The notes: generated by a model from the letters alone, not told the origin. 42,458 nucleotides of DNA from a bacterium (GCA_024696325.1 JAILGY010000029.1:1-42458); one strand, 5' to 3'. Positions 1 through 25,882 are shown, counted from the stretch's first letter. A program made the numbers and translations.

Positions 1-2
1 TG

Positions 3-65
3 GCTTCTGATGGCGACGGCAGCGACCTGTGGCGCATTGAGACCAGACTCCGCTTCAAATTCTAA
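3..65 (+). CDS. 3' end of an upstream gene (partial). The C-terminus ...LWRIETRLRFKF* resembles the terminal strand of an outer-membrane beta-barrel.
   Basis: Open frame running in from the window edge to TAA at 63-65. It ends in an alternating hydrophobic pattern with a terminal Phe and is followed by an intrinsic terminator. Confidence 0.3.
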   Translation, partial: ASDGDGSDLWRIETRLRFKF

Positions 66-101
66 GATTTATTCTTTCGAATTATCGATGCTGTACAATA
101 T

Positions 102-133
102 GCCGGGCCGCAAGGCCCGGCTTTTTTGTTTTT
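102..133 (+). terminator. Rho-independent terminator
   Basis: GCCGGGCC-gcaa-GGCCCGGC hairpin followed by TTTTTTGTTTTT. Confidence 0.75.
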
Positions 134-155
134 GGACTCCCCCCGGCGCTTGCGC

Positions 156-340
156 GCCCCCCTCTCAGGGGGGCTTTAGGTTCTGGCGCCCCCTTTGGGG
201 GAGCTGGCCGCGCAGCGGCCTGAAGGGGTTGCCCTCTCCTTGGGAGGCTTTAAAGAGCCCTGTTTTGTAGGGGCGCACCTGTGTGTGCGCCCGTGTTTTG
301 TGCGCCGTGTTGCAATCACTGGCGACCACGCAGGGTCGCC
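156..340. other. Cluster of unrelated GC-rich hairpins in a non-coding spacer
   Basis: Five hairpins: GCCCCCC-tctca-GGGGGGC (156-174), CCCCC-ttt-GGGGG (189-201), GGCCGC-gca-GCGGCC (206-220), GGGCGCAC-ctgtgt-GTGCGCCC (271-292) and GGCGACC-acgcag-GGTCGCC (321-340). The fourth is flanked by direct TGTTTTGT copies at 261-268 and 294-301. Confidence 0.5.
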
Positions 341-438
341 CCTACTTCTGGCTCCTCGGAGAGGGACTGCGCGTGAACAATTCCTGGGGAATATCCTCTT
401 GAAATATCAAGCTTTTCGCTGTGCTTTCTTCAAAGCTT

Positions 439-470
439 AGGAAAATCTAAAGTCTACTTTAGATTTTCCT
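439..470. repeat. AT-rich 15-bp perfect inverted repeat with a 2-nt spacer
   Basis: AGGAAAATCTAAAGT-ct-ACTTTAGATTTTCCT. It extends imperfectly to CTTAGG.../...CCTAGG. Confidence 0.6.
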
Positions 471-516
471 AGGTTTATCCTATACAACCTGTATTTGAAG
501 GTTCTGGTCGGATAAA

Positions 517-554
517 GGCAAACAAAAGCCCCGGCCTTTTCAGTCCGGGGCTTT
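517..554 (-). terminator. Rho-independent terminator of the DUF2828-like gene
   Basis: AAAGCCCCGG / CCGGGGCTTT stem (525-534 / 545-554). On the minus strand it is followed by TTTTGTTTG, 30 nt past the stop at 584. Confidence 0.7.
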
Positions 555-583
555 ATACTTTTCTTCTTGTGAAGCCAAATTTT

Positions 584-2053
584 TTACGCAGCCACGCTGA
601 TGGCCGCGTACCGTTCGTCATTGAGGATTTTCAGCATGGCCTCCAGCGGAGTCAGTCCCACACAGTCCATGACATGTTTGAAAGTGGCAGCGGACTGGCC
701 GCTCACCAGCTGGACTCCGCGCCGCTTGGCATCGGAGTGGAACACGTCATGGCGGCTGTTTACATTCCAGAAGATGACGTTGGGCAGATTATAACCCGCT
801 TCGCGGAAGCGCTGCTCCATCTGCTCATGGAAGGTCCAGCTCTTGTCGCCGCACCGGTCGATCTCCATGTCGGAGATGACGATCAACGATTTGGGCATTT
901 CCTCTTCCGGCACATGATGTTTGATGGCAATGCCCAGCACCCGCTCGAAGGCGCCCCTGAGGTTGGTATTTTGCGCCCAGGCATTCATATCGAGGCTGGC
1001 GATCTTCTGTGCCAGCGTCTCGCCCCTGAGCAGGTGGATGCGCGAATTGTTGGAAAAGGACATCCACATGTTGTGGTAGGCGCCGGTATTGCGTTCGGCG
1101 AAGTAAATGGCCAGCCCCACGGAAGTGGCCATGGGACGGCCCCTCATGGATCCGGAAGTGTCGGCGATGACCAGGGCGTTTGTGCCCGGTGCCACATAGT
1201 TTGGCAACTGTCGCCACTGGGCTTCCACCACCTTGTCCTCCCGGGGAGTTTCCCACCAATCCGCCCAGACTTTTTCTACCAGATCGTAGGGGAAGAGCGT
1301 GCCGGAATGGATTGTTTCCTCACCGTTTATGGCCCGGTCGATATAGGCGTTGTAGCGTTCCTCGTCATGCCGCAGGAAGGCCTTGCGATAGAGCAGCATG
1401 GCCCGGCTGGGCACGGCGGGATAGCGGATTTCATCCCAGCGTCCGGTGGACATCAGCGCCTCAATGATCCCCAGTTTTTTGCGCAGTGCCCGCACGATGC
1501 GCTTGAAATCGTAGACCCGGTAGCCCAGTTTCAGTGCCGTGAGAATGCCCAGGCGGCGGGTTTCCGCCGAGCTGGAATCGGCGGTCTTGATCCACTTGGC
1601 CAGAAGGGAAATCGCGCCGTTGGGGATCTCCAGAGCGGTACGGTCCTCCTCGAACTGTTTCTTCATGGCCGCCCACATATCCGCTTCCAGCGGTGTGCCG
1701 ACAAGCGTGTAAAGATCATCGTAGCGGCCATAGATACCGACCAGATCCAGATTGGGGCGCAGGGCCTCGGGATGATATTCGGCCATATGACGCATGAGCG
1801 TGCGGAAGGTGCGACGCTCGCCCAGGCCGCCGCGCACGTCGCGGCCGTAAAACGCGATCTTGACCGCCAGCAGCGGGTTTTCCCGGTACGCATCGGCAAA
1901 GAGACGGTTTATCCGTGTCTCTGCCGCTTCCCGAAGCGCGCCCATCGTACCGAACAGATCGAGCAGGCTGCTCCCCGTGCCGTTCAAGGCAAGCGCATCG
2001 TTTTCGGTGCGTGTCCACCTGGCATTTTCTCTGGCCGCATCCGCAAAATCCAT
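584..2053 (-). CDS. DUF2828-like protein: alpha-helical N-terminal domain plus C-terminal von Willebrand A domain with a MIDAS motif (Ro60/TROVE-like architecture)
   Basis: 489 aa counted from the internal ATG at 2053, which is preceded by AAGGAGAACCAC. DxSxS MIDAS motif in ALVIADTSGSMRG and a later SLIVISDME strand. I recognise the family from memory of DUF2828 proteins. The 27 codons upstream in the ORF track have no SD. Confidence 0.75.
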   Translation of the reverse strand: MDFADAARENARWTRTENDALALNGTGSSLLDLFGTMGALREAAETRINRLFADAYRENPLLAVKIAFYGRDVRGGLGERRTFRTLMRHMAEYHPEALRPNLDLVGIYGRYDDLYTLVGTPLEADMWAAMKKQFEEDRTALEIPNGAISLLAKWIKTADSSSAETRRLGILTALKLGYRVYDFKRIVRALRKKLGIIEALMSTGRWDEIRYPAVPSRAMLLYRKAFLRHDEERYNAYIDRAINGEETIHSGTLFPYDLVEKVWADWWETPREDKVVEAQWRQLPNYVAPGTNALVIADTSGSMRGRPMATSVGLAIYFAERNTGAYHNMWMSFSNNSRIHLLRGETLAQKIASLDMNAWAQNTNLRGAFERVLGIAIKHHVPEEEMPKSLIVISDMEIDRCGDKSWTFHEQMEQRFREAGYNLPNVIFWNVNSRHDVFHSDAKRRGVQLVSGQSAATFKHVMDCVGLTPLEAMLKILNDERYAAISVAA

Positions 2054-2086
2054 GTGGTTCTCCTTGCATGACCCGTTGTGTCGTTT

Positions 2087-2107
2087 TATCCATGGCGTGC
2101 ATGGATA
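2087..2107 (-). promoter_or_regulatory. 8-bp inverted repeat in the leader of the DUF2828-like gene
   Basis: TATCCATG-gcgtg-CATGGATA, 34 nt upstream of the start codon and between the tRNA-like RNA and the CDS. Confidence 0.25.
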
Positions 2108-2148
2108 TGACCAAAAAATTGCTGTGAGGGTCACTGTTCAAATTTGAA

Positions 2149-2258
2149 GGCAGGGACCGGATTCGAACCGGTGGCCTAGTCGAAATGGGATTTGCTGCTG
2201 GGTTCACGGAACATGAGCCGTTTTTGAACAACTCGCTCTGCCGCTGAGCTACCCTGCC
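2149..2258 (-). ncRNA. tRNA-like RNA (110 nt) with canonical acceptor, D and T arms but a 46-nt insertion in place of the anticodon loop
   Basis: The reverse complement folds as GGCAGGG-UA-GCUC-AGCGGCA-GAGC-G-AGUUG-[46 nt]-CGACU-AGGCC-ACCGG-UUCGAAU-CCGGU-CCCUGCC. U8, A14, the D-loop GG and the UUCGAAU T-loop are all present. No CCA is encoded. Confidence 0.7.
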
Positions 2259-2349
2259 ACTGCTGCTTTTGCTGAAGCGGCGGTGTTTCTCCAAAACAGC
2301 GCGACGACCTGTGCGGAAAACATCCTCCGATTCGCTTGCAAGAAGGAGC

Positions 2350-2682
2350 TTACTTGAAGAGATTGTTTCCGCAGTGGGGGCAGCTGAACGCGCTGGTGGT
2401 GGTGATGCGGTGTCCGCAGACCGGGCAGTTGAACCAGTGCCGGCAGTAGCGGCATTGCATTTCCGCAAGCCCCTGCTTTTTTTTGCACTTGGAACAGCGT
2501 TTGTACATCTTGCGCTTCTCCATGTAGTCTGCAAACAGCAGTCCGCAACGCGGGCATTCCTCTGTCCCCGGTTTTTTGATGGAAAAGCCGCAGTTGGGCG
2601 CCGGACAGACAAAAACGGTTTTGCAGTTGCCGCACCAGTATTTTCCTTTTGTCTGCTCACCACAGACCGGGCATTTCTCCAT
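2350..2682 (-). CDS. Cysteine-rich multi-zinc-ribbon protein (110 aa)
   Basis: Eight CxxC-type pairs (CPVC, CGNC, CPAPNC, CPRC, CSKC, CRYC, CPVC, CPHC), enough for four zinc ribbons. The ATG at 2682 is preceded by AAAGGGGGG. Confidence 0.6.
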   Translation of the reverse strand: MEKCPVCGEQTKGKYWCGNCKTVFVCPAPNCGFSIKKPGTEECPRCGLLFADYMEKRKMYKRCSKCKKKQGLAEMQCRYCRHWFNCPVCGHRITTTSAFSCPHCGNNLFK

Positions 2683-2981
2683 AGCGCCCCCCTTTGAGAA
2701 AGAGAGAACTTTTTTCACACCGTTACATTTTTTTGCTAACTCTCCTTTAAAAATAAACCATTTTTATCGTGGGCTGTCAATGTTCCGCCACATTGCGGCC
2801 ATTTCCCCGCCATCTTTGGGCGCCTTTTTACGAATATGGGGCATGGACGTGACGTCAGAAATATTTTAGGATAGACAAAGATTAATGAGCCGCCCCTGTT
2901 CCCGTTCGTCGGGAAAGCCGGCGTCACCATGAACCGCCATCAAGGCGCTTGTCTCTCTTTGGAAGGGAAGGATCGAGGCCC

Positions 2982-5900
2982 ATGCCTACAGAACATTCAG
3001 GATTTGTTACCGAGCGCGTAACCGAATTGAAGGATCTCCGCCTGACACTGCACCAGCTGCGGCACAAAGCGACCGGCGCGCGTTTCGTGCATCTGGCCAA
3101 CGACGACCAGGAAAACGTGTTCGGCGTCGGATTCCGCACCACGCCCCTCAACTCCAGCGGTGTGGCGCATATTCTTGAACATACGACGCTGTGCGGTTCC
3201 CGGCGCTATCCGGTACGGGACATTTTCTTTTCCATGCTGAACCGCAGTCTCAACACGTTTATGAATGCCCTGACCGCCAGCGACTGGACTTTCTACCCCT
3301 TTGCCACCCAGAACCGCAAGGATTTCCATAATCTGATGGAGGTTTATCTCGATGCGGCCTTCTTTCCGCTTCTGCGGCGCACCGATTTTCACCAGGAGGG
3401 GATCCGCTTTGAGCTGGACGGCGGGAAAACGCTGCTTCCAAAGGGTGTGGTCTATAATGAAATGAAGGGCGCGCTTTCCAATCCGGCCACGCTGGCCTAT
3501 TACCGTCTGACCGAAGCACTGTATCCAACGACCACCTATGGCTGGAATTCCGGCGGGGAGCCCGACGCCATCCTCGACCTTACCTGGGAGGAACTGCGAC
3601 AGTTTCATGACACCTACTATCATCCCAGCAACGCCTTGTTCTACTCCTATGGCAGTTTCCCGCTGGAGGAGACGCTGGGGCTGGTTCATGAGCGGGTGCT
3701 GCGCCATTTCGGCACCCAGACGGTTCAAAGCGCCGTCCCGCTGGAACAGCGTTTTTCCAGTCCCAAGCATGTGGAAAAAAGCTTTGCACTGGAAGCTGGC
3801 CAGCCCCTGGAGCGGCGCGCGCTTTTGCTTATGGGCTGGTTGACCAATCCGATTGAGGAGCAGCTTGAAGGGTTGGGCCTGACCCTGCTTTCCGAGCTGC
3901 TTTTGGGGGATGCCGCCGCACCTTTGCGCAAGGCGCTGATCGATTCCCGGCTGGGAGAGGGGATCTGCCCCGGTTCCGGCTATCACGACGAAAATCGCGA
4001 AACTTTTTTCGCCGCCGGTCTTGAGGGAACCGATCCCGGGCAGGCAGGCAATCTGGAAAAGCTGATACTGGAGACGCTGGAAAAGACGGCCGCCGCCGGT
4101 TTCGAGCGGGAACGCGTCGAATCCGCCATCCATCAGCTGGAACTCGCCCACCGCGAAATTGGCGGCGGCGAGCCCTACGGGCTGCAGTTGCTGATGCGCC
4201 TGGTTGGCACGTGGATGCACTGCGACGATCCCCTGGCTGCCTTACGTTTTGACGAACACATCGAAACGATTCGCCGCGAGGCGGAAAATGGCTTTTTCGA
4301 AGGTCTGATCCGTAAGCATTTGCTGGACAATTCCCACAGGGTTTCGCTGCTGCTCAAACCGGATCCGAAAGAGGAGGAACGCCAGAACGCCGCGACCGCT
4401 ACAGCCATGCGGGAAAAACTGGCGGCGCTTTCACCGGAGGAACGCCAGCAACTGGTCGACGAGGCGCAGGAACTCCGAGACTTTCAGGAAGGCGCCGACG
4501 ATGTTTCCTGTCTGCCGAGCTTGAGCCTGGAAGACATTCCCGCCGAGGAGAACGCCACCCCCTGGAAGAACATGACGCACAACGGCGCACCGCTCTTTGG
4601 TTTTGAGCTTTCGACCAACGGCATTGGCTATTTTGGATCCTGGCTGGATTTGGCGGATGTCCCGGAGCATGTGCGCGCCTATGTGCCGGTCTTTTCGTTT
4701 CTGCTGACCCGTGTCGGCGCGGGCGGGGACGATTATCTGACCATGGCCCGGCGGATTGCCGCCGCAACCGGCGGGGTCTCGGCCACGCCTCTGGTGCTGG
4801 GCGCTCCTTCCGGTCTTCGTGATCATCGCTTGCTGCTGTCCGTCAGCGGCAAGGCGCTGATGCGCAATCAGAAGGAGATGTTTCAAATATTGAGGGATCT
4901 GCTGTATGCGCCGGATTTCAGGGATCGCAAACGGCTTGCGACCCTGCTGGATCAACTGAAGGTGTCGCTGGTCAACTCGGTTGCCGACTCTGGCCACCGC
5001 TATGCGATGCAGCTCGCGGCCGCTTCTTTGAGTGCAGCCGGCCAAAGGCGGGAGGAATGGTCCGGCATTGGCTTCATTCGTCAGGTTTGCACGCTGGCCG
5101 GGCTGGATGATTCGGGCTGGGCGGATTTTGAAGCGCGTCTTGAGGAACTGAAAATTTTTCTGGCGGAGAATGGAAGTATCCAGTATTCTGCTTTAACATC
5201 TCCGGGTGATTTGCCCATGCTGCTTGACAGTTTGCCCATTCTGACAAAGGGACATGCGGGATACGGCAATGGCGCCCGGTGTCTTTCGGGGGCGGCGTCT
5301 CCGGCAGCGCGGGCTGTGGGAGTGGCCATACCGGCGGCGGTTTCCTATGTGGCGCGGGTGTGGCCCGCTGTTACGCTGGAGCATGAGGATTGCGCCGGGT
5401 TGCTGGTGCTGGCCAAGCTGTTGCGCAGTTGCTTTCTGCATCGCGAAATTAGGGAAAAAGGCGGCGCATATGGCGGACTTGCCTCGTTCGATCCGGGAGC
5501 CGGCGTGTTCGCAATGGCTTCCTATCGCGATCCGAGACTGGCCGGAACCTTGCGTGACTACCGGCGGGCTGCGGAATGGGCCGCATCTGGTGCTTTTGAG
5601 GATCGGGATGTTGAGGAATCCATTTTGGGCGCCTTCAGCGATCTGGATCGGCCGCTTCCTCCGGAAGGGCGAAGCAATCGGGAAGTTCTGCGGCATTTGG
5701 CGGGCATTTCGCCCAAAATGCGCAAAGATTTGCGAGCCGGAATGCTGGCGGTGACGCGGAACGCCTTGTGTGATCTTGCCACGCGTTATCTGGTCAAACA
5801 GTGGGAACAAAGCGCCGTCGGCGTGTTGTCCAGCCGGGAAATGCTGCTCCGTGCCAACGAGGAACTGGAGGGCGAGATACTGACTGTTAACGAGCTGTAA
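2982..5900 (+). CDS. M16C (PreP/insulinase-like) zinc metallopeptidase
   Basis: 972 aa. HxxEH motif in GVAHILEHTTLCGSRRYP. The length and layout are typical of the M16C family. The ATG at 2982 follows GGAAGGGAAGGA. Confidence 0.85.
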   Translation: MPTEHSGFVTERVTELKDLRLTLHQLRHKATGARFVHLANDDQENVFGVGFRTTPLNSSGVAHILEHTTLCGSRRYPVRDIFFSMLNRSLNTFMNALTASDWTFYPFATQNRKDFHNLMEVYLDAAFFPLLRRTDFHQEGIRFELDGGKTLLPKGVVYNEMKGALSNPATLAYYRLTEALYPTTTYGWNSGGEPDAILDLTWEELRQFHDTYYHPSNALFYSYGSFPLEETLGLVHERVLRHFGTQTVQSAVPLEQRFSSPKHVEKSFALEAGQPLERRALLLMGWLTNPIEEQLEGLGLTLLSELLLGDAAAPLRKALIDSRLGEGICPGSGYHDENRETFFAAGLEGTDPGQAGNLEKLILETLEKTAAAGFERERVESAIHQLELAHREIGGGEPYGLQLLMRLVGTWMHCDDPLAALRFDEHIETIRREAENGFFEGLIRKHLLDNSHRVSLLLKPDPKEEERQNAATATAMREKLAALSPEERQQLVDEAQELRDFQEGADDVSCLPSLSLEDIPAEENATPWKNMTHNGAPLFGFELSTNGIGYFGSWLDLADVPEHVRAYVPVFSFLLTRVGAGGDDYLTMARRIAAATGGVSATPLVLGAPSGLRDHRLLLSVSGKALMRNQKEMFQILRDLLYAPDFRDRKRLATLLDQLKVSLVNSVADSGHRYAMQLAAASLSAAGQRREEWSGIGFIRQVCTLAGLDDSGWADFEARLEELKIFLAENGSIQYSALTSPGDLPMLLDSLPILTKGHAGYGNGARCLSGAASPAARAVGVAIPAAVSYVARVWPAVTLEHEDCAGLLVLAKLLRSCFLHREIREKGGAYGGLASFDPGAGVFAMASYRDPRLAGTLRDYRRAAEWAASGAFEDRDVEESILGAFSDLDRPLPPEGRSNREVLRHLAGISPKMRKDLRAGMLAVTRNALCDLATRYLVKQWEQSAVGVLSSREMLLRANEELEGEILTVNEL

Positions 5901-5920
5901 CCAACCAACGGAGTGAATGT

Positions 5921-7360
5921 ATGTTTATTGACTATAGGTCACCCCGGGAACGGGCCGGACAGTTCCAGCCCAAGACGAAAAAGATGCGCGGGAGAACGAT
6001 CCTGGAATGCCTGGGGATGGTGGCAGGGATCGCGGCGATTCTTCTGTGGACCACCCTGGAAATTACGCCGGTTGATACCGCTTATGAGGCGGGAGAGGAA
6101 AAACGGCCTGATTCTTCCTCTTTGGTCATACCGGAGGAGAATCCGTTTTTGAGTATGGATGAGGGCTTGCCGAAAGAGGCGGAAATGGAGCGGGATCCCC
6201 TGTTTTCGGCAGAGGAAGAGGCCACGTCCACCGCTGATGAGGTGGTGACCGGCGTTATCAATCCTGAAGAAACCTTTACCACCCTGTTGACAAAGTATCT
6301 TTCAACGGCGGAGGTCATCAAAATTGCGGATAAATGCCGTCCTGTCTTCCCCCTGGGACGGATGCAGGTGGGACAGCCCTACAAGTTTCATATCGACAAA
6401 GGGCTTTTCAGCCGTTTCGTCTATGAGATCGACGACAAGGATCAACTTATCATCACACGTGGGAAAAAAGATTTTGTGGTAAAACGCGAAAAGATTCCCT
6501 GCGAGGTGCGGATCCAGACCGTACGCGTGAACATCCGCTCCAGCCTGTCCGGTGCGGTGGCCAGTGCCGGAGAATCCCGGGAACTGGCCAGCAGGGTAGC
6601 GGGAATTTTCGCCTGGGATGTCGATTTCCTTCGCGATATCCGTGCGGGAGATTCCTTCAGCGTTGTTGTGGAAAAGCGGTTTCGCAAGGACAAGTTCGTT
6701 GGCTATGGCAAGATACTGGCTGCGGAAATTGTCAATCAGGGCACCACGTACAAGGCCTACAGGTATGAAACCCGCAAGGGCGTTTTTGGCTATTTCGACG
6801 AAAATGGCAAAAGTCTGCAAAAAGGGTTTCTGCGGGCTCCGCTTGCCTATACCCGCATATCCTCCCGTTTCACCTACCGGCGTTTTCATCCGGTACTGAA
6901 ACGCTATCGTCCTCATACCGGCGTTGACTACGCGGCACCCAGAGGAACGCCGATTCATTCCGTGGCATCTGGTGTGGTGACGGAACGGGGATACAACCGG
7001 TTCAACGGCAAGTTCGTCCGGATTCGCCACAACAACGGCATGGAGACGCTGTACAACCACATGAGCAGTTTTGCGCCGGGGCTCAGTGTGGGAGGGCATG
7101 TACCCCAGGGCAGGATGATTGGCAGGGTGGGTTCGACCGGTCTTTCCACCGGGCCGCATCTTGATTTCCGTATGTACCGCAACGGCGTGCCCATCGATCC
7201 GCTTTCCGTCAAGACCATTTACGCCGATCCGGTTCCAGCGCGGAAAATTGCGGATTTCCGCGCATTGGTCAAATCCTATGCGCCCCAGTTGAAAGCCGGC
7301 GTTCCGATCAATATCGGTGTCGCGGAAAAGAAGGGCAAAAGCTTGATGAAAGGCGGGTGA
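5921..7360 (+). CDS. M23 family peptidoglycan metalloendopeptidase with an N-terminal membrane anchor
   Basis: HTGVDYAAPRGTPIHSVASGVV and GSTGLSTGPHLDFRMY motifs. TM segment ILECLGMVAGIAAILLW. GGAG lies upstream of the ATG. An alternative start at Met23 is possible. Confidence 0.85.
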   Translation: MFIDYRSPRERAGQFQPKTKKMRGRTILECLGMVAGIAAILLWTTLEITPVDTAYEAGEEKRPDSSSLVIPEENPFLSMDEGLPKEAEMERDPLFSAEEEATSTADEVVTGVINPEETFTTLLTKYLSTAEVIKIADKCRPVFPLGRMQVGQPYKFHIDKGLFSRFVYEIDDKDQLIITRGKKDFVVKREKIPCEVRIQTVRVNIRSSLSGAVASAGESRELASRVAGIFAWDVDFLRDIRAGDSFSVVVEKRFRKDKFVGYGKILAAEIVNQGTTYKAYRYETRKGVFGYFDENGKSLQKGFLRAPLAYTRISSRFTYRRFHPVLKRYRPHTGVDYAAPRGTPIHSVASGVVTERGYNRFNGKFVRIRHNNGMETLYNHMSSFAPGLSVGGHVPQGRMIGRVGSTGLSTGPHLDFRMYRNGVPIDPLSVKTIYADPVPARKIADFRALVKSYAPQLKAGVPINIGVAEKKGKSLMKGG

Positions 7361-7411: not shown

Positions 7412-7436
7412 TGCGGAAAAATTGAAGAGAGAAATG

Positions 7437-7520
7437 CCTTGGGGAGTTTTTACTGAGAATCCCTGAAGAAGGGATAACCCATCGAACCTGATCCGGGTAA
7501 TGCCGGCGAAGGGAAGTGGC
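7437..7520 (+). promoter_or_regulatory. TPP (THI-box) riboswitch aptamer
   Basis: Conserved elements GGGGAG...CUGAGA...ACCC...GAACCUGAUCCGGGUAAUGCCGGCGAAGGGAA lie upstream of the thiamine genes. Confidence 0.9.
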
Positions 7521-7568
7521 AACAAAGCGCGTATCCGCTGTGCGTTATGCGTGATAGTCGTTGTATCA

Positions 7569-25582: not shown

Positions 25583-25599
25583 GAAGAACCTTTCCATGG

Positions 25600-25776
25600 G
25601 TGGAAGGGACGTTTCGGTGTCCACTTTTCGTGGGTGAAAAGGGAAGAGGGGCGTACATCCCCCGCGGACCCGCCGCTGTGATCAGCCGTTTTTCGTCTTT
25701 TGTGCCACTGGGCCTCCTGAAGGGGCCTGGGAAGGCAGACGGAAAACCATGACTGTAAGCCAGAAGACCTGCCGGA
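25600..25776 (+). promoter_or_regulatory. Cobalamin (B12) riboswitch
   Basis: GGUGAAAAGGGAA...CAUCCCCCGCGGACCCGCCGCUGU, then GCCACUGGGCC...CCUGGGAAGGC, and the B12 box AGCCAGAAGACCUGCC (25758-25773). It sits upstream of a TonB-dependent receptor. Confidence 0.88.
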
Positions 25777-25882
25777 ACGTATATATTCACACTCTCTTCG
25801 GGTGATTGGGAGGGCGTCCTGATGTGCGGTGCGCAAAGGTTTGCGTGGGCCTGGCGGAGGCGTTTGCGAACCTGTACGGGAG

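What the first reader, a model, noticed from the sequence alone, without database searches (positions are those of the whole stretch)
2149..2258. tRNA-shaped RNA with a 46-nt 'anticodon loop'
On the minus strand this 110-nt stretch has every hallmark of a class I tRNA body:
- a 7-bp acceptor stem GGCAGGG/CCCUGCC, followed by U8 and A9
- a D arm GCUC-AGCGGCA-GAGC with A14 and a GG in the loop
- a 5-bp anticodon stem AGUUG/CGACU
- a 5-nt variable loop AGGCC
- a T arm ACCGG-UUCGAAU-CCGGU

Where a 7-nt anticodon loop should be, there are 46 nt: UUCAAAAACGGCUCAUGUUCCGUGAACCCAGCAGCAAAUCCCAUUU. This insert includes a local hairpin, GUUC-CGU-GAAC. No CCA is encoded and the discriminator is U.

Known bacterial tRNA introns are group I introns of more than 200 nt. 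Short protein-spliced introns are an archaeal/eukaryal feature. Reading it as a 39-nt intron after position 37 would give anticodon CAA (Leu), but bacterial tRNA-Leu is class II with a long variable arm, and this body is class I.

It is therefore either a tRNA mimic (a Y-RNA/YrlA-style effector RNA) or a new kind of interrupted bacterial tRNA. It lies in the same orientation between a zinc-ribbon gene and a Ro60-like vWA gene, which is reminiscent of the bacterial rsr / Y RNA loci whose YrlA RNAs contain a tRNA-like domain.
Basis: partly seen in the sequence, partly recalled or inferred. Interest (0 to 1): 0.85.

Follow-up and report, generated by a model that had tools for sequence, protein, structure and literature searches.

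The report
tRNA-built partner RNA of Ro60-like protein
The odd "tRNA with a 46-base anticodon loop" is a real, conserved non-coding RNA that carries the signature shared by all small RNAs found beside a phage-borne Ro60-like protein (DUF2828), so it is most likely that protein's RNA partner, an undescribed relative of bacterial Y RNAs.

Summary
Window 2148-2258 (-) matches Rfam tRNA at 51.6 bits with a 41-nt insertion; ARAGORN calls nothing. It is neither a decayed nor an interrupted tRNA. More than 100 distinct relatives, mostly in gut-phage contigs, keep a covarying acceptor, D and T arm and the 15:48 tertiary pair. All carry the same insert core: a hairpin whose top pairs are C-G, A-U and U•G, then ACAGCAA three bases downstream.

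These RNAs lie just upstream of, and on the same strand as, a DUF2828+vWA gene. That was so in 75-78 of 78 loci chosen by the protein alone with enough upstream DNA. The protein's predicted fold matches Ro60/Rsr best.

The same signature recurs in an "open" form: a 7-bp helix made by distant strands, then NNA-CAGCAA. In the window this unit is 2067-2134 (-), ending 13 nt before the start codon, beside the ribosome-binding site. Open units flank DUF2828 genes in eight of nine cultured-phage loci examined, and the long ones are permuted tRNAs with sub-threshold YrlA matches.

Best reading: a Y-RNA-like partner on an unpermuted tRNA scaffold, plus a probable autoregulatory copy. Binding, expression and function are untested.

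The parts
2148..2258 (-). 111-nt tRNA-scaffold RNA. Acceptor stem 2252-2258 with 2149-2155, D arm 2235-2249, anticodon-stem halves 2229-2233 and 2178-2182, T arm 2156-2172, discriminator U at 2148. A 46-nt module replaces the anticodon loop.
   Evidence: Rfam tRNA 51.6 bits. Scores 78 bits with family model R1, but it was in R1's training set. Arms and the 15:48 pair covary in relatives. The homologue L138 shows a compensatory change in the T stem.
2201..2219 (-). Signature hairpin GGCU-CAU-GUUCC-GUG-AACC. The top pairs C-G, A-U and U•G are invariant; the lower stem covaries.
   Evidence: These bases were invariant in 15 RNAs found through the protein alone. In 65 distinct RNAs from protein-selected loci the counts were C-G 65/65, A-U 64 plus one C-G, and U•G 65/65, with lower-stem pairs changing on both sides. 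L141 has CCUG..GGG, an A-U to C-G swap.
2192..2197 (-). Single-stranded CAGCAA, three bases 3' of the hairpin. This is the second half of the signature.
   Evidence: C62, G64, C65 and A67 are invariant in alignments A1 and A3. The homologue L138 reads ACAGCAA here.
2067..2134 (-). Open copy of the signature in the DUF2828 mRNA leader. 5' strand GUGACCC (2128-2134), UCA spacer, CAGCAA (2119-2124), inner 8-bp hairpin (2087-2107), 3' strand GGGUCAU+G (2067-2074).
   Evidence: Found by script. Scores 32.6 bits, E=3.6e-5, with model R2, which was built without it; it is the only R2 match in the 42-kb window. Coordinates.
2051..2065 (-). Shine-Dalgarno AAGGAG (2060-2065) and ATG (2051-2053) of the DUF2828 gene. 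The open unit ends 1 nt before the Shine-Dalgarno sequence and 13 nt before the ATG.
   Evidence: Sequence. In 77 of the 80 viral-contig loci chosen by the protein, the last open unit ends 13-17 nt before the ATG.
584..2053 (-). DUF2828 + DUF7788 (vWA) protein, 489 aa. Helical solenoid plus a vWA domain with an intact DxSxS metal-binding (MIDAS) motif (D298-T-S-G-S302). Predicted fold is Ro60-like.
   Evidence: Pfam; invariant columns; AlphaFold2 model with pLDDT 78.9; Foldseek top 7 matches are all Ro60/Rsr.
2350..2718 (-). Cys-rich zinc-ribbon-like protein upstream, same strand. The likely start gives 110 aa, i.e. 2350-2682. It is a neighbour specific to this lineage and its membership in the system is doubtful.
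   Evidence: Only sub-threshold zinc-ribbon matches. Present in L137 and L138. Absent from all 132 loci held at that point, by tblastn.

Best explanation
The 111-nt RNA is a stable non-coding RNA that serves as the RNA subunit of a Ro60/Y-RNA-type particle formed with the DUF2828-vWA protein encoded just downstream.

It is built on a genuine tRNA body: a 7-bp acceptor stem, D and T arms, and the tertiary pairs that make the L shape. By inference, that body lets RNase P, RNase Z and perhaps the CCA-adding enzyme cut it out of a transcript and stabilise it, as happens for M. smegmatis YrlA.

In place of the anticodon loop it carries the family signature: a helix whose last three pairs are C-G, A-U and U•G, followed three bases later by single-stranded ACAGCAA. 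This signature is the only feature common to all RNAs found beside DUF2828 genes, so it is the probable docking site for the protein. By analogy with Ro60, the helix would sit on the surface and the single strand in or near the ring.

A second copy of the signature forms in the mRNA leader from two distant strands. It ends at the ribosome-binding site. Protein not occupied by the tRNA-like RNA would bind there and shut off its own translation.

What the particle does is not shown. Two clues point to surveillance, repair or protection of tRNA or other structured RNA during phage infection: the homology of fold with Ro60, and the way DUF2828 genes sit inside phage tRNA gene arrays. The vWA metal-binding site would recruit a partner protein.

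Shown here: the anatomy, conservation, covariation, genetic linkage and the fold similarity. Inferred: binding, processing, autoregulation and function.
For: 1. It is a real structured RNA.
- Rfam tRNA 51.6 bits.
- In 48 representative relatives, 92.5% of cells pair against 66.4% in shuffles; covariation score 0.70 against 0.195; 0 of 500 shuffles reach it.
- The same holds for 65 distinct RNAs from loci chosen by protein only: 93.0% against 71.9%.
- The 15:48 tertiary pair is G:C in 27, A:U in 19 and other in 2.

2. Linkage to the protein.
- 108 of 129 RNA-motif loci have a DUF2828 homologue (56-72% identity) in the stretch held, nearly always just downstream on the same strand; most of the rest are cut by the locus end.
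- Of 80 viral-contig loci chosen by protein homology, 75 have a family-model match of at least 69 bits, mostly upstream and all on the gene strand. Four (L206, L208, L212, L218) carry a 92-nt variant; L206 also matched the looser text pattern. Two lack upstream DNA.

3. The protein is Ro60-like. Foldseek's best seven PDB matches are Rsr/Ro60 over the full length (2nvo E=1.5e-4, probability 1.0). The DxSxS motif is intact. Mycobacteriophage homologues are annotated 'Ro-like RNA binding protein'.

4. The signature is shared with non-tRNA units.
- 230 open units on the gene strand against 0 on the opposite strand in 633 kb; shuffles give 0.45.
- CAGCAA occurs in 64 of 66 distinct leaders against 9.7 expected.
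- All 22 matches to model R2 (E up to 1, 137 kb) lie beside DUF2828 genes on the gene strand, including the window unit, which was not in the model.

5. Deep co-conservation. Open units flank DUF2828 genes of only 27-37% identity in Mycobacterium, Listeria, Escherichia, Bacillus, Enterococcus, Staphylococcus, Campylobacter and Klebsiella phages.

6. A bridge to Y RNAs. The long open units in LeBron and the Klebsiella phage contain a T arm, a closed acceptor hairpin and a D arm, and match Rfam YrlA at 39.8 and 34.3 bits. Two further sub-threshold YrlA matches lie nearby: 36.4 bits next to the Klebsiella unit and 37.5 bits in the Bacillus phage locus.

7. The last open unit ends 13-17 nt before the ATG in 77 of the 80 viral-contig loci, and 13 nt before it in the window.
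Against: - No binding, expression or processing data exist. Promoter and terminator scans were uninformative.
- Similarity to Ro60 is at fold level only, with modest TM-scores (0.29-0.42). Sequence and profile searches do not connect DUF2828 to TROVE.
- Eight viral loci have a genuine tRNA-like RNA but no DUF2828 gene in the stretch held.
- One homologue at 71% identity (L001) has open units but no tRNA-like RNA.
- In Listeria, LeBron, Staphylococcus and Felix-like phages the units do not abut the ribosome-binding site, or lie downstream of the gene. Autoregulation, if real, is therefore specific to this clade.
- Much of the viral sample consists of closely related gut phages, so raw counts overstate the number of independent events.
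- Some invariants in the pattern-derived set, and the perfect pairing in the open-unit sets, follow from how those sets were selected.
Confidence: 0.62

Rival explanations
1. The whole upstream region, tRNA-like RNA plus leader unit, is a cis-regulatory leader of the DUF2828 mRNA. It would sense something other than the DUF2828 protein, for example a host tRNA-binding factor, tRNA fragments or a small molecule, and so control translation.
For: In this clade the RNAs are always upstream on the gene strand, in one to four copies, and the last unit abuts the Shine-Dalgarno sequence. No promoter or terminator was detected between the RNA and the gene in the window.
Against: - In LeBron, Staphylococcus, Klebsiella and Felix-like phages the units lie downstream of the gene or scattered among tRNA genes.
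- Eight loci have the RNA without the gene nearby.
- A complete 7-bp acceptor stem with a T arm is a processing signal for a free RNA, not a typical feature of a leader.
Confidence: 0.15
2. The RNA is a tRNA decoy that works on its own. It would soak up or misdirect host tRNA-targeting defences (anticodon nucleases) or tRNA-modifying enzymes during infection, with DUF2828 merely co-inherited.
For: - The family is overwhelmingly phage-borne and sits in or next to phage tRNA arrays.
- About half of the relatives keep a hairpin with a 7-nt, anticodon-loop-like loop.
- Some loci lack DUF2828.
Against: - The window RNA and many relatives have no anticodon-like loop at all.
- The invariant part is the CAU/GUG helix and ACAGCAA, which resemble no tRNA element.
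- The same signature tracks DUF2828 across phyla even in units with no tRNA body.
Confidence: 0.1
3. It is an interrupted tRNA gene. The 39-46-nt insert would be a new small intron, removed to give a decoding tRNA.
For: - All tRNA body features are intact.
- An RtcB ligase gene lies near DUF2828 in a Listeria phage.
- In about half of the relatives an anticodon-arm-like hairpin follows the insert.
Against: - The insert is more conserved than the body.
- No consistent splice junction or anticodon can be reconstructed. The 5' flank is an A-rich linker, and the anticodon stem often has only 2-3 pairs.
- The signature also occurs outside tRNA bodies.
- There is no Rfam intron match.
- RtcB is not a recurrent neighbour in the clade.
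Confidence: 0.05
4. It is a decaying tRNA pseudogene with a chance insertion.
For: ARAGORN does not call it. The window locus is an isolated island in a chromosome.
Against: More than 100 distinct relatives show compensatory changes in every helix and invariant insert bases. An 87%-identity homologue keeps the RNA with a compensatory T-stem change.
Confidence: 0.01

Closest known systems
YrlA-type bacterial Y RNAs bound by Rsr/Ro60 (Chen et al. 2014, PMC4201824; Rfam RF02553)
   Same: - A ~110-nt RNA encoded next to, and on the strand of, a Ro60-shaped helical-repeat + vWA protein.
- It contains tRNA-like D and T arms with tRNA tertiary pairs.
- Often several copies per locus; also found in phages.
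- A helical module with a short conserved motif sits on the anticodon side.
- Long open units beside distant DUF2828 genes give sub-threshold YrlA matches.
   Different: - The protein is DUF2828, not TROVE, by sequence.
- No Rfam YrlA match for the window RNA.
- The conserved motif is the CAU/GUG helix plus ACAGCAA, not GNCGAAN0-1G.
- The topology is the circular permutation of YrlA: here the ends are in a normal 7-bp acceptor stem and the conserved helix is capped by a loop. In YrlA the ends form the protein-binding stem and the 'acceptor' is capped.
Transfer RNA (Rfam RF00005)
   Same: Acceptor, D and T arms, U8, A14, G18G19, the T-loop, the 15:48 pair and a 5-nt variable loop. It scores above the Rfam threshold.
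   Different: There is no 7-nt anticodon loop and no anticodon. A 46-nt conserved module takes their place, and ARAGORN rejects it.
Translational operators that mimic a protein's main RNA ligand (for example the ThrRS operator and ribosomal-protein leaders; from general knowledge)
   Same: A second copy of the presumed protein-binding element lies in the protein's own mRNA leader, directly beside the ribosome-binding site.
   Different: Repression has not been tested. In other DUF2828 phages the units do not touch the ribosome-binding site.

Membership tests
tRNA (RF00005) | Cloverleaf body: 7-bp acceptor stem, D arm, T arm with a T-loop of the TTCRANY type | tested here: met
   Full-length Rfam match, 51.6 bits. 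In relatives the helices pair in 98%, 95% and 99.6% of cells and covary.
tRNA (RF00005) | Tertiary-interaction nucleotides (U8, A14, G18G19, 15:48 Levitt pair) | tested here: met
   U8 and A14 are invariant; G18 47/48; G19 43/48. The 15:48 pair is G:C in 27, A:U in 19 and other in 2.
tRNA (RF00005) | 5-bp anticodon stem closing a 7-nt loop with an anticodon | tested here: not met
   The window has 46 nt between the stem halves. ARAGORN finds no tRNA. Across the family the stem often has 2-3 pairs and the 5' flank is an A-rich linker.
tRNA (RF00005) | Aminoacylation and use in decoding | not testable with these tools
   Needs acid-gel Northern blots or charging assays.
YrlA / bacterial Y RNA (RF02553) | Match to the Rfam YrlA covariance model | tested here: not met
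   No YrlA match in window 1-6000 at E up to 10. Only the long open units in other phages reach 34-40 bits, against a gathering score of 69.
YrlA / bacterial Y RNA (RF02553) | Encoded within about 4 kb of a Ro60 (TROVE) orthologue on the same strand | tested here: inconclusive
   Position and strand are met: 94 nt upstream, same strand. The protein is Ro60-like by predicted fold only. It hits Pfam DUF2828, not TROVE.
YrlA / bacterial Y RNA (RF02553) | 5' and 3' ends pair to form the protein-binding stem, which carries GNCGAAN0-1G | tested here: not met
   The ends form a tRNA acceptor stem, and the sequence has no GNCGAA motif. The conserved motif is CAU/GUG plus ACAGCAA.
YrlA / bacterial Y RNA (RF02553) | Bound by the Ro60 orthologue in vivo | not testable with these tools
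   Needs RIP or EMSA.
Ro60 / TROVE proteins (for the neighbouring gene) | Helical-repeat domain followed by a vWA domain with a metal-binding (MIDAS) motif | tested here: met
   The AlphaFold2 model has helices over about residues 29-281 and an alpha/beta vWA domain over 293-480. D298-T-S-G-S302 is invariant. Foldseek's top 7 matches are Ro60/Rsr.
Ro60 / TROVE proteins (for the neighbouring gene) | Sequence membership in Pfam TROVE (PF05731) | tested here: not met
   Only DUF2828 and DUF7788 are hit. A profile comparison with a true TROVE protein aligns the vWA part only, probability 8%.
Intron-containing tRNA genes (group I or protein-spliced) | A recognisable intron (group I core or bulge-helix-bulge) at a fixed anticodon-loop position, leaving a normal anticodon loop after removal | tested here: not met
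   No Rfam intron match. No common junction or anticodon across 48 relatives. The insert signature also occurs outside tRNA bodies. The bulge-helix-bulge motif was not searched for formally.

The most novel reading that the evidence does not exclude
The helix-plus-ACAGCAA signature marks a large, undescribed class of small RNAs that partner DUF2828 Ro60-like proteins throughout tailed phages. DUF2828 homologues occur in 703 cultured phage records, including Felix O1-like, Listeria P100-like, Staphylococcus, Campylobacter and cluster L mycobacteriophages, and in some bacterial chromosomes.

The class exists in two circularly permuted forms of one architecture: a tRNA body with an extra protein-binding helix at the junction of the D stem and the anticodon stem. 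In the window's clade a copy has also been recruited as a translational operator of the protein's own gene. The particle would act on tRNA or tRNA-like targets during infection.
Probability: 0.45. Interest if true: 0.88.

Novelty: new variant of a known kind. Interest (0 to 1): 0.8.

Why it matters
Ro60 and Y RNAs are a classic, still poorly understood RNA-protein partnership. In bacteria it has been studied only for TROVE-type Rsr proteins.

This work points to a second, much larger, phage-centred branch. DUF2828 has more than 5,450 homologues in the protein database and hits in 703 cultured phage genomes. That branch has its own RNA signature, which is absent from Rfam and unannotated in GenBank. 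For example, the Felix O1-type unit is conserved in 207 phage records, where it carries no annotation or is overlapped by a hypothetical-protein call.

The finding gives three things:
- A concrete, mutable RNA element for binding studies.
- A natural pair of permuted topologies, which shows which parts of the tRNA mimic matter.
- A testable autoregulatory loop.

It also explains a recurrent unannotated gap in phage tRNA gene arrays, and warns that tRNA finders will either miss these genes or mis-score them.

Tried and rejected

2. The intron reading fails: no common junction or anticodon and no Rfam intron match.

3. I first read GUGACCCUCAC followed by a U-run, just after the RNA, as an intrinsic terminator. 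I rejected this. GUGACCC instead pairs with GGGUCAU 60 nt downstream, as in all homologous leaders.

4. I considered a universal anticodon-loop mimic (CUNNUAA). Only about half of the RNAs have a 7-nt-loop hairpin there and the loops are heterogeneous, so I kept it only as a side note.

5. L062 looked like a link to a true TROVE gene. The pattern hit there is a chance match on an ordinary tRNA with no R1 match, so I dropped it. L013 was dropped for the same reason.

6. Sequence-level homology of DUF2828 to Ro60 was not detectable by phmmer, hmmsearch or hhalign.

7. I looked for conserved neighbour genes that might name a pathway. Apart from DUF2828 nothing is constant. Terminase, a small Myb-like protein, a nicotinamidase-like protein and others recur only in sub-lineages, and RtcB is not recurrent.

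8. Promoter and terminator scans gave nothing usable.

9. Literature searches for DUF2828, Ro-like phage proteins and tRNA-like partners found no description of this RNA. The Burroughs & Aravind 2016 paper and the Sim et al. 2020 review could not be read.

Full report
**1. The observation**

Rfam's tRNA model matches it end to end at 51.6 bits (gathering score 29, E=2.4e-8), treating 41 nt as an insertion in the anticodon loop. ARAGORN calls no tRNA in the whole window. No other Rfam family touches the region, even at E up to 10.

Downstream on the same strand lies a 489-aa DUF2828 + DUF7788 protein at 584-2053. Upstream is a Cys-rich protein with only sub-threshold zinc-ribbon matches.

**2. 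It belongs to a large, conserved RNA family**

A protein-based scan of species-representative genomes gave 12 DUF2828 loci. In nine of them Rfam found 114-130-nt 'long tRNA' matches near the gene, upstream in eight and just downstream in one (L002), often two to four in tandem. Aligning 15 of these showed invariant bases inside the insert: UCAUG, then 3-5 nt, then GUG, then 7 nt, then CAGCAA.

In 206 of 213 hits a perfect 7-bp acceptor stem could be placed. There were 108 distinct RNAs of 92-131 nt.

On 48 representatives below 85% identity, 92.5% of cells pair, against 66.4% in shuffles and 32-51% when partners are slid. The covariation score is 0.70 against 0.195. The acceptor pairing and the pattern bases in that set are partly a product of how the set was selected. 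An independent set of 65 distinct RNAs, taken from loci chosen by protein only and aligned by model R1, gives the same picture: 93.0% paired. The insert hairpin's top pairs are C-G 65/65, A-U 64 plus one compensatory C-G, and U•G 65/65, and its lower pairs change on both sides.

The 15:48 tertiary pair switches between G:C (27) and A:U (19), with two exceptions, so the L-shaped fold is under selection. Model R1 separates members (66-111 bits) from ordinary tRNAs (60 bits or less).

**3. Linkage to the protein**

Of 129 motif-bearing loci, 108 contain a DUF2828 homologue of 56-72% identity, nearly always just downstream on the same strand. Most of the others end before the gene could appear.

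In the reverse direction, 80 viral loci were chosen by protein homology.
- 75 have an R1 match of at least 69 bits, mostly upstream and all on the gene strand.
- Four (L206, L208, L212, L218) have a 92-nt variant that keeps the hairpin and ACAGCAA; one of them, L206, also matched the looser text pattern.
- Two have too little upstream DNA.

There are exceptions. Eight loci have a genuine RNA but no DUF2828 in the stretch held. L001, at 71% identity, has no tRNA-like RNA. Two pattern hits, L013 and L062, were false.

The window locus itself is not a prophage. In a syntenic contig, the zinc-ribbon gene, the RNA and DUF2828 form a small island between a PreP peptidase/thi operon and housekeeping genes. 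That contig's RNA carries a compensatory T-stem change and a U•G to U-A change in the anticodon stem.

**4. The protein**

DUF2828 has more than 5,450 homologues in the protein database, none carrying an informative name. An AlphaFold2 model (pLDDT 78.9, pTM 0.72) shows an N-terminal helical solenoid and a C-terminal vWA domain. The DxSxS metal-binding motif is invariant.

Foldseek against the PDB ranks Deinococcus Rsr first (E=1.5e-4, probability 1.0, 527 aligned columns, TM 0.42). Six further Ro60 entries follow before generic vWA domains appear. Sequence and profile searches do not detect the relationship.

tblastn finds homologues in 703 cultured phage records. Mycobacteriophage copies are annotated 'Ro-like RNA binding protein', and others 'RNA-binding protein'. 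LeBron gp53 was moderately toxic when overexpressed (PMC13148394). In seven of the nine cultured-phage loci I inspected, tRNA genes lie within about 3 kb of the gene, and in five of them it sits inside or at the edge of a tRNA gene array.

**5. A second, 'open' form of the signature**

The stretch between the last tRNA-like RNA and the DUF2828 start codon contains CAGCAA in 64 of 66 distinct leaders, against 9.7 expected. Reading these leaders showed units of the form 5'-G(U/G)G-R-stem-NNA-CAGCAA ... stem-U-C(A/C)UG-3'. This is the same helix as in the tRNA-like RNA, but made by two strands 50-120 nt apart, with ACAGCAA on the inside.

A script found 230 such units on the gene strand and none on the opposite strand in 633 kb. 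Shuffled loci gave 0.45. The second pair is U-A in 28 helix variants and G-C in 20. In 77 of the 80 viral-contig loci the last unit ends 13-17 nt before the ATG, directly before the Shine-Dalgarno sequence.

The window has one such unit at 2067-2134 (-): GUGACCC-UCA-CAGCAA...GGGUCAUG. It ends 13 nt before the ATG.

A covariance model of the open unit (R2) was built from 20 units without the window. It finds the window unit at 32.6 bits (E=3.6e-5 in 137 kb) and nothing else in the window. All 22 of its matches lie beside DUF2828 genes on the gene strand. They include two units in L001, the locus that lacks the tRNA-like form.

**6. The signature follows DUF2828 across phyla and connects to Y RNAs**

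Units with a 7-bp helix, a 2-4-nt spacer ending in A, CAGCAA and a trailing G lie next to DUF2828 genes of only 27-37% identity in these phages:
- LeBron: three, downstream.
- A Listeria P100-like phage: three, upstream.
- A Felix O1-like phage: among the tRNA genes.
- A Bacillus phage: three.
- An Enterococcus phage: one.
- A Staphylococcus phage: three.
- A Campylobacter phage: two.
- A Klebsiella phage: several.

In the ninth locus, a Vibrio phage, only a dubious script hit overlapping the start codon was found and model R2 found nothing.

The helix sequences all differ while pairing is kept. Those sets were selected for pairing, so the meaningful controls are the strand asymmetry and model R2.

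The long units in LeBron (4019-4141) and the Klebsiella phage (4755-4872) contain a T arm, a closed acceptor-like hairpin and a D arm, and give sub-threshold Rfam YrlA matches of 39.8 and 34.3 bits. Two further sub-threshold matches lie at Klebsiella 4628-4743 (36.4 bits) and Bacillus 85-188 (37.5 bits); the gathering score is 69.

In those RNAs the conserved helix sits between the D arm and the anticodon side and holds the RNA's ends. In the window RNA the same helix sits at the same junction but is capped by a loop, and the ends are in the acceptor stem. The two forms are therefore circular permutations of one architecture. YrlA, as described by Chen et al. 2014 (PMC4201824), has the open topology but a different motif (GNCGAAN0-1G) and a TROVE partner.

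**7. Interpretation**

The simplest account is that the helix plus ACAGCAA is the binding site of the DUF2828 protein. The tRNA-like RNA would then be a Y-RNA-like subunit whose tRNA body supplies processing, stability and shape. The leader copy would let free protein repress its own translation.

The function of the particle is unknown. The Ro60 precedent (RNA quality control, tethering of nucleases) and the constant association with phage tRNA genes suggest an activity on tRNA or tRNA-like RNAs during infection.

Rivals are weighed in their own section: a cis-regulatory leader that senses another ligand, an autonomous decoy, an intron-containing tRNA and a pseudogene.

**8. Novelty and limits**

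No Rfam family covers either form. The Felix O1-type unit is conserved in 207 phage records, where it carries no annotation or is overlapped by a hypothetical-protein call. Full-text searches found no description, but the library is incomplete and two key papers could not be read.

There are no expression or binding data. The viral sample is dominated by related gut phages. E-values from the home-made models are rough. The link to Ro60 rests on a predicted fold with modest TM-scores.

Noticed in passing
window 7430-7533 (+) and 25598-25790 (+): A TPP riboswitch (67.7 bits) lies upstream of a ThiS/ThiF-like gene, and there is a cobalamin riboswitch (106.4 bits). Both are ordinary chromosomal features and show that the window is bacterial chromosome, not phage.
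   Followed up: no
window 2087-2107 (-): A perfect 8-bp hairpin, UAUCCAUG-CACGC-CAUGGAUA, lies inside the leader unit. It is conserved in the 87%-identity homologue L138, with changes only in the loop. It takes the place of the small hairpin seen inside open units of other loci.
   Followed up: partly
window 2350-2718 (-); L137 3712-4044; L138 7361-7693: A Cys-rich protein with multiple CxxC motifs (110 aa as called in related contigs) always precedes the RNA in this bacterial lineage. It is absent from all phage loci, and its role is unknown.
   Followed up: partly
L135 4216-4282 and 4771-4838 (Escherichia phage vB_EcoM_ASO1A); Felix O1 AF320576.1 23866-23945: 67-68-nt ACAGCAA units fill gaps between annotated tRNA genes of Felix O1-like phages. 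One is conserved at 78-100% identity in 207 phage records, where it carries no annotation or is overlapped by a hypothetical-protein call.
   Followed up: partly
L133 3952-4200 (Mycobacterium phage LeBron, downstream of gp53): Three tandem ACAGCAA units. The middle one (4019-4141) is a permuted tRNA-like RNA that matches Rfam YrlA at 39.8 bits, below the gathering score. None is annotated in the record.
   Followed up: partly
L134 5346-6500 (Listeria phage LMTA-148): RtcB and a 'tRNA-splicing ligase' gene lie about 1.3 kb downstream of the DUF2828 gene. This recalls the rsr-yrlBA-rtcBA operon of Salmonella, but RtcB is not a recurrent neighbour in the gut-phage clade.
   Followed up: partly
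L206, L208 and L212 at about 2632-2725; L218 998-1089; L015 (92-nt RNA T21): Compact ~92-nt variants keep the acceptor stem, T arm, signature hairpin and ACAGCAA, but replace the D arm with a different hairpin.
   Followed up: partly
L018, L019, L023, L105, L114, L119, L122, L127: Genuine family members (R1 73-105 bits) with no DUF2828 gene in the stretch held. In three of them the RNA sits just upstream of a terminase large-subunit gene.
   Followed up: partly
about half of the 108 tRNA-like RNAs, e.g. L017, L131, L009; open units in L200-L217, L223: A hairpin with a 7-nt loop lies just before the 3' half of the anticodon stem. It often reads like an anticodon loop (U at 33 in 38/57, A at 37 in 42/57, A at 38 in 36/57; e.g. 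CUGGUAA, CUUUUAA, AUGCUAA). In these RNAs the conserved module looks inserted into the 5' strand of the anticodon stem rather than into the loop.
   Followed up: partly
L062 (IMGVR_UViG_3300045972_000088), minus strand: A true TROVE + Ro60-type vWA gene is preceded by several tRNA-like sequences. This looks like a canonical phage Ro60/Y-RNA locus and is unrelated to the ACAGCAA family; the pattern hit there was a chance match.
   Followed up: partly
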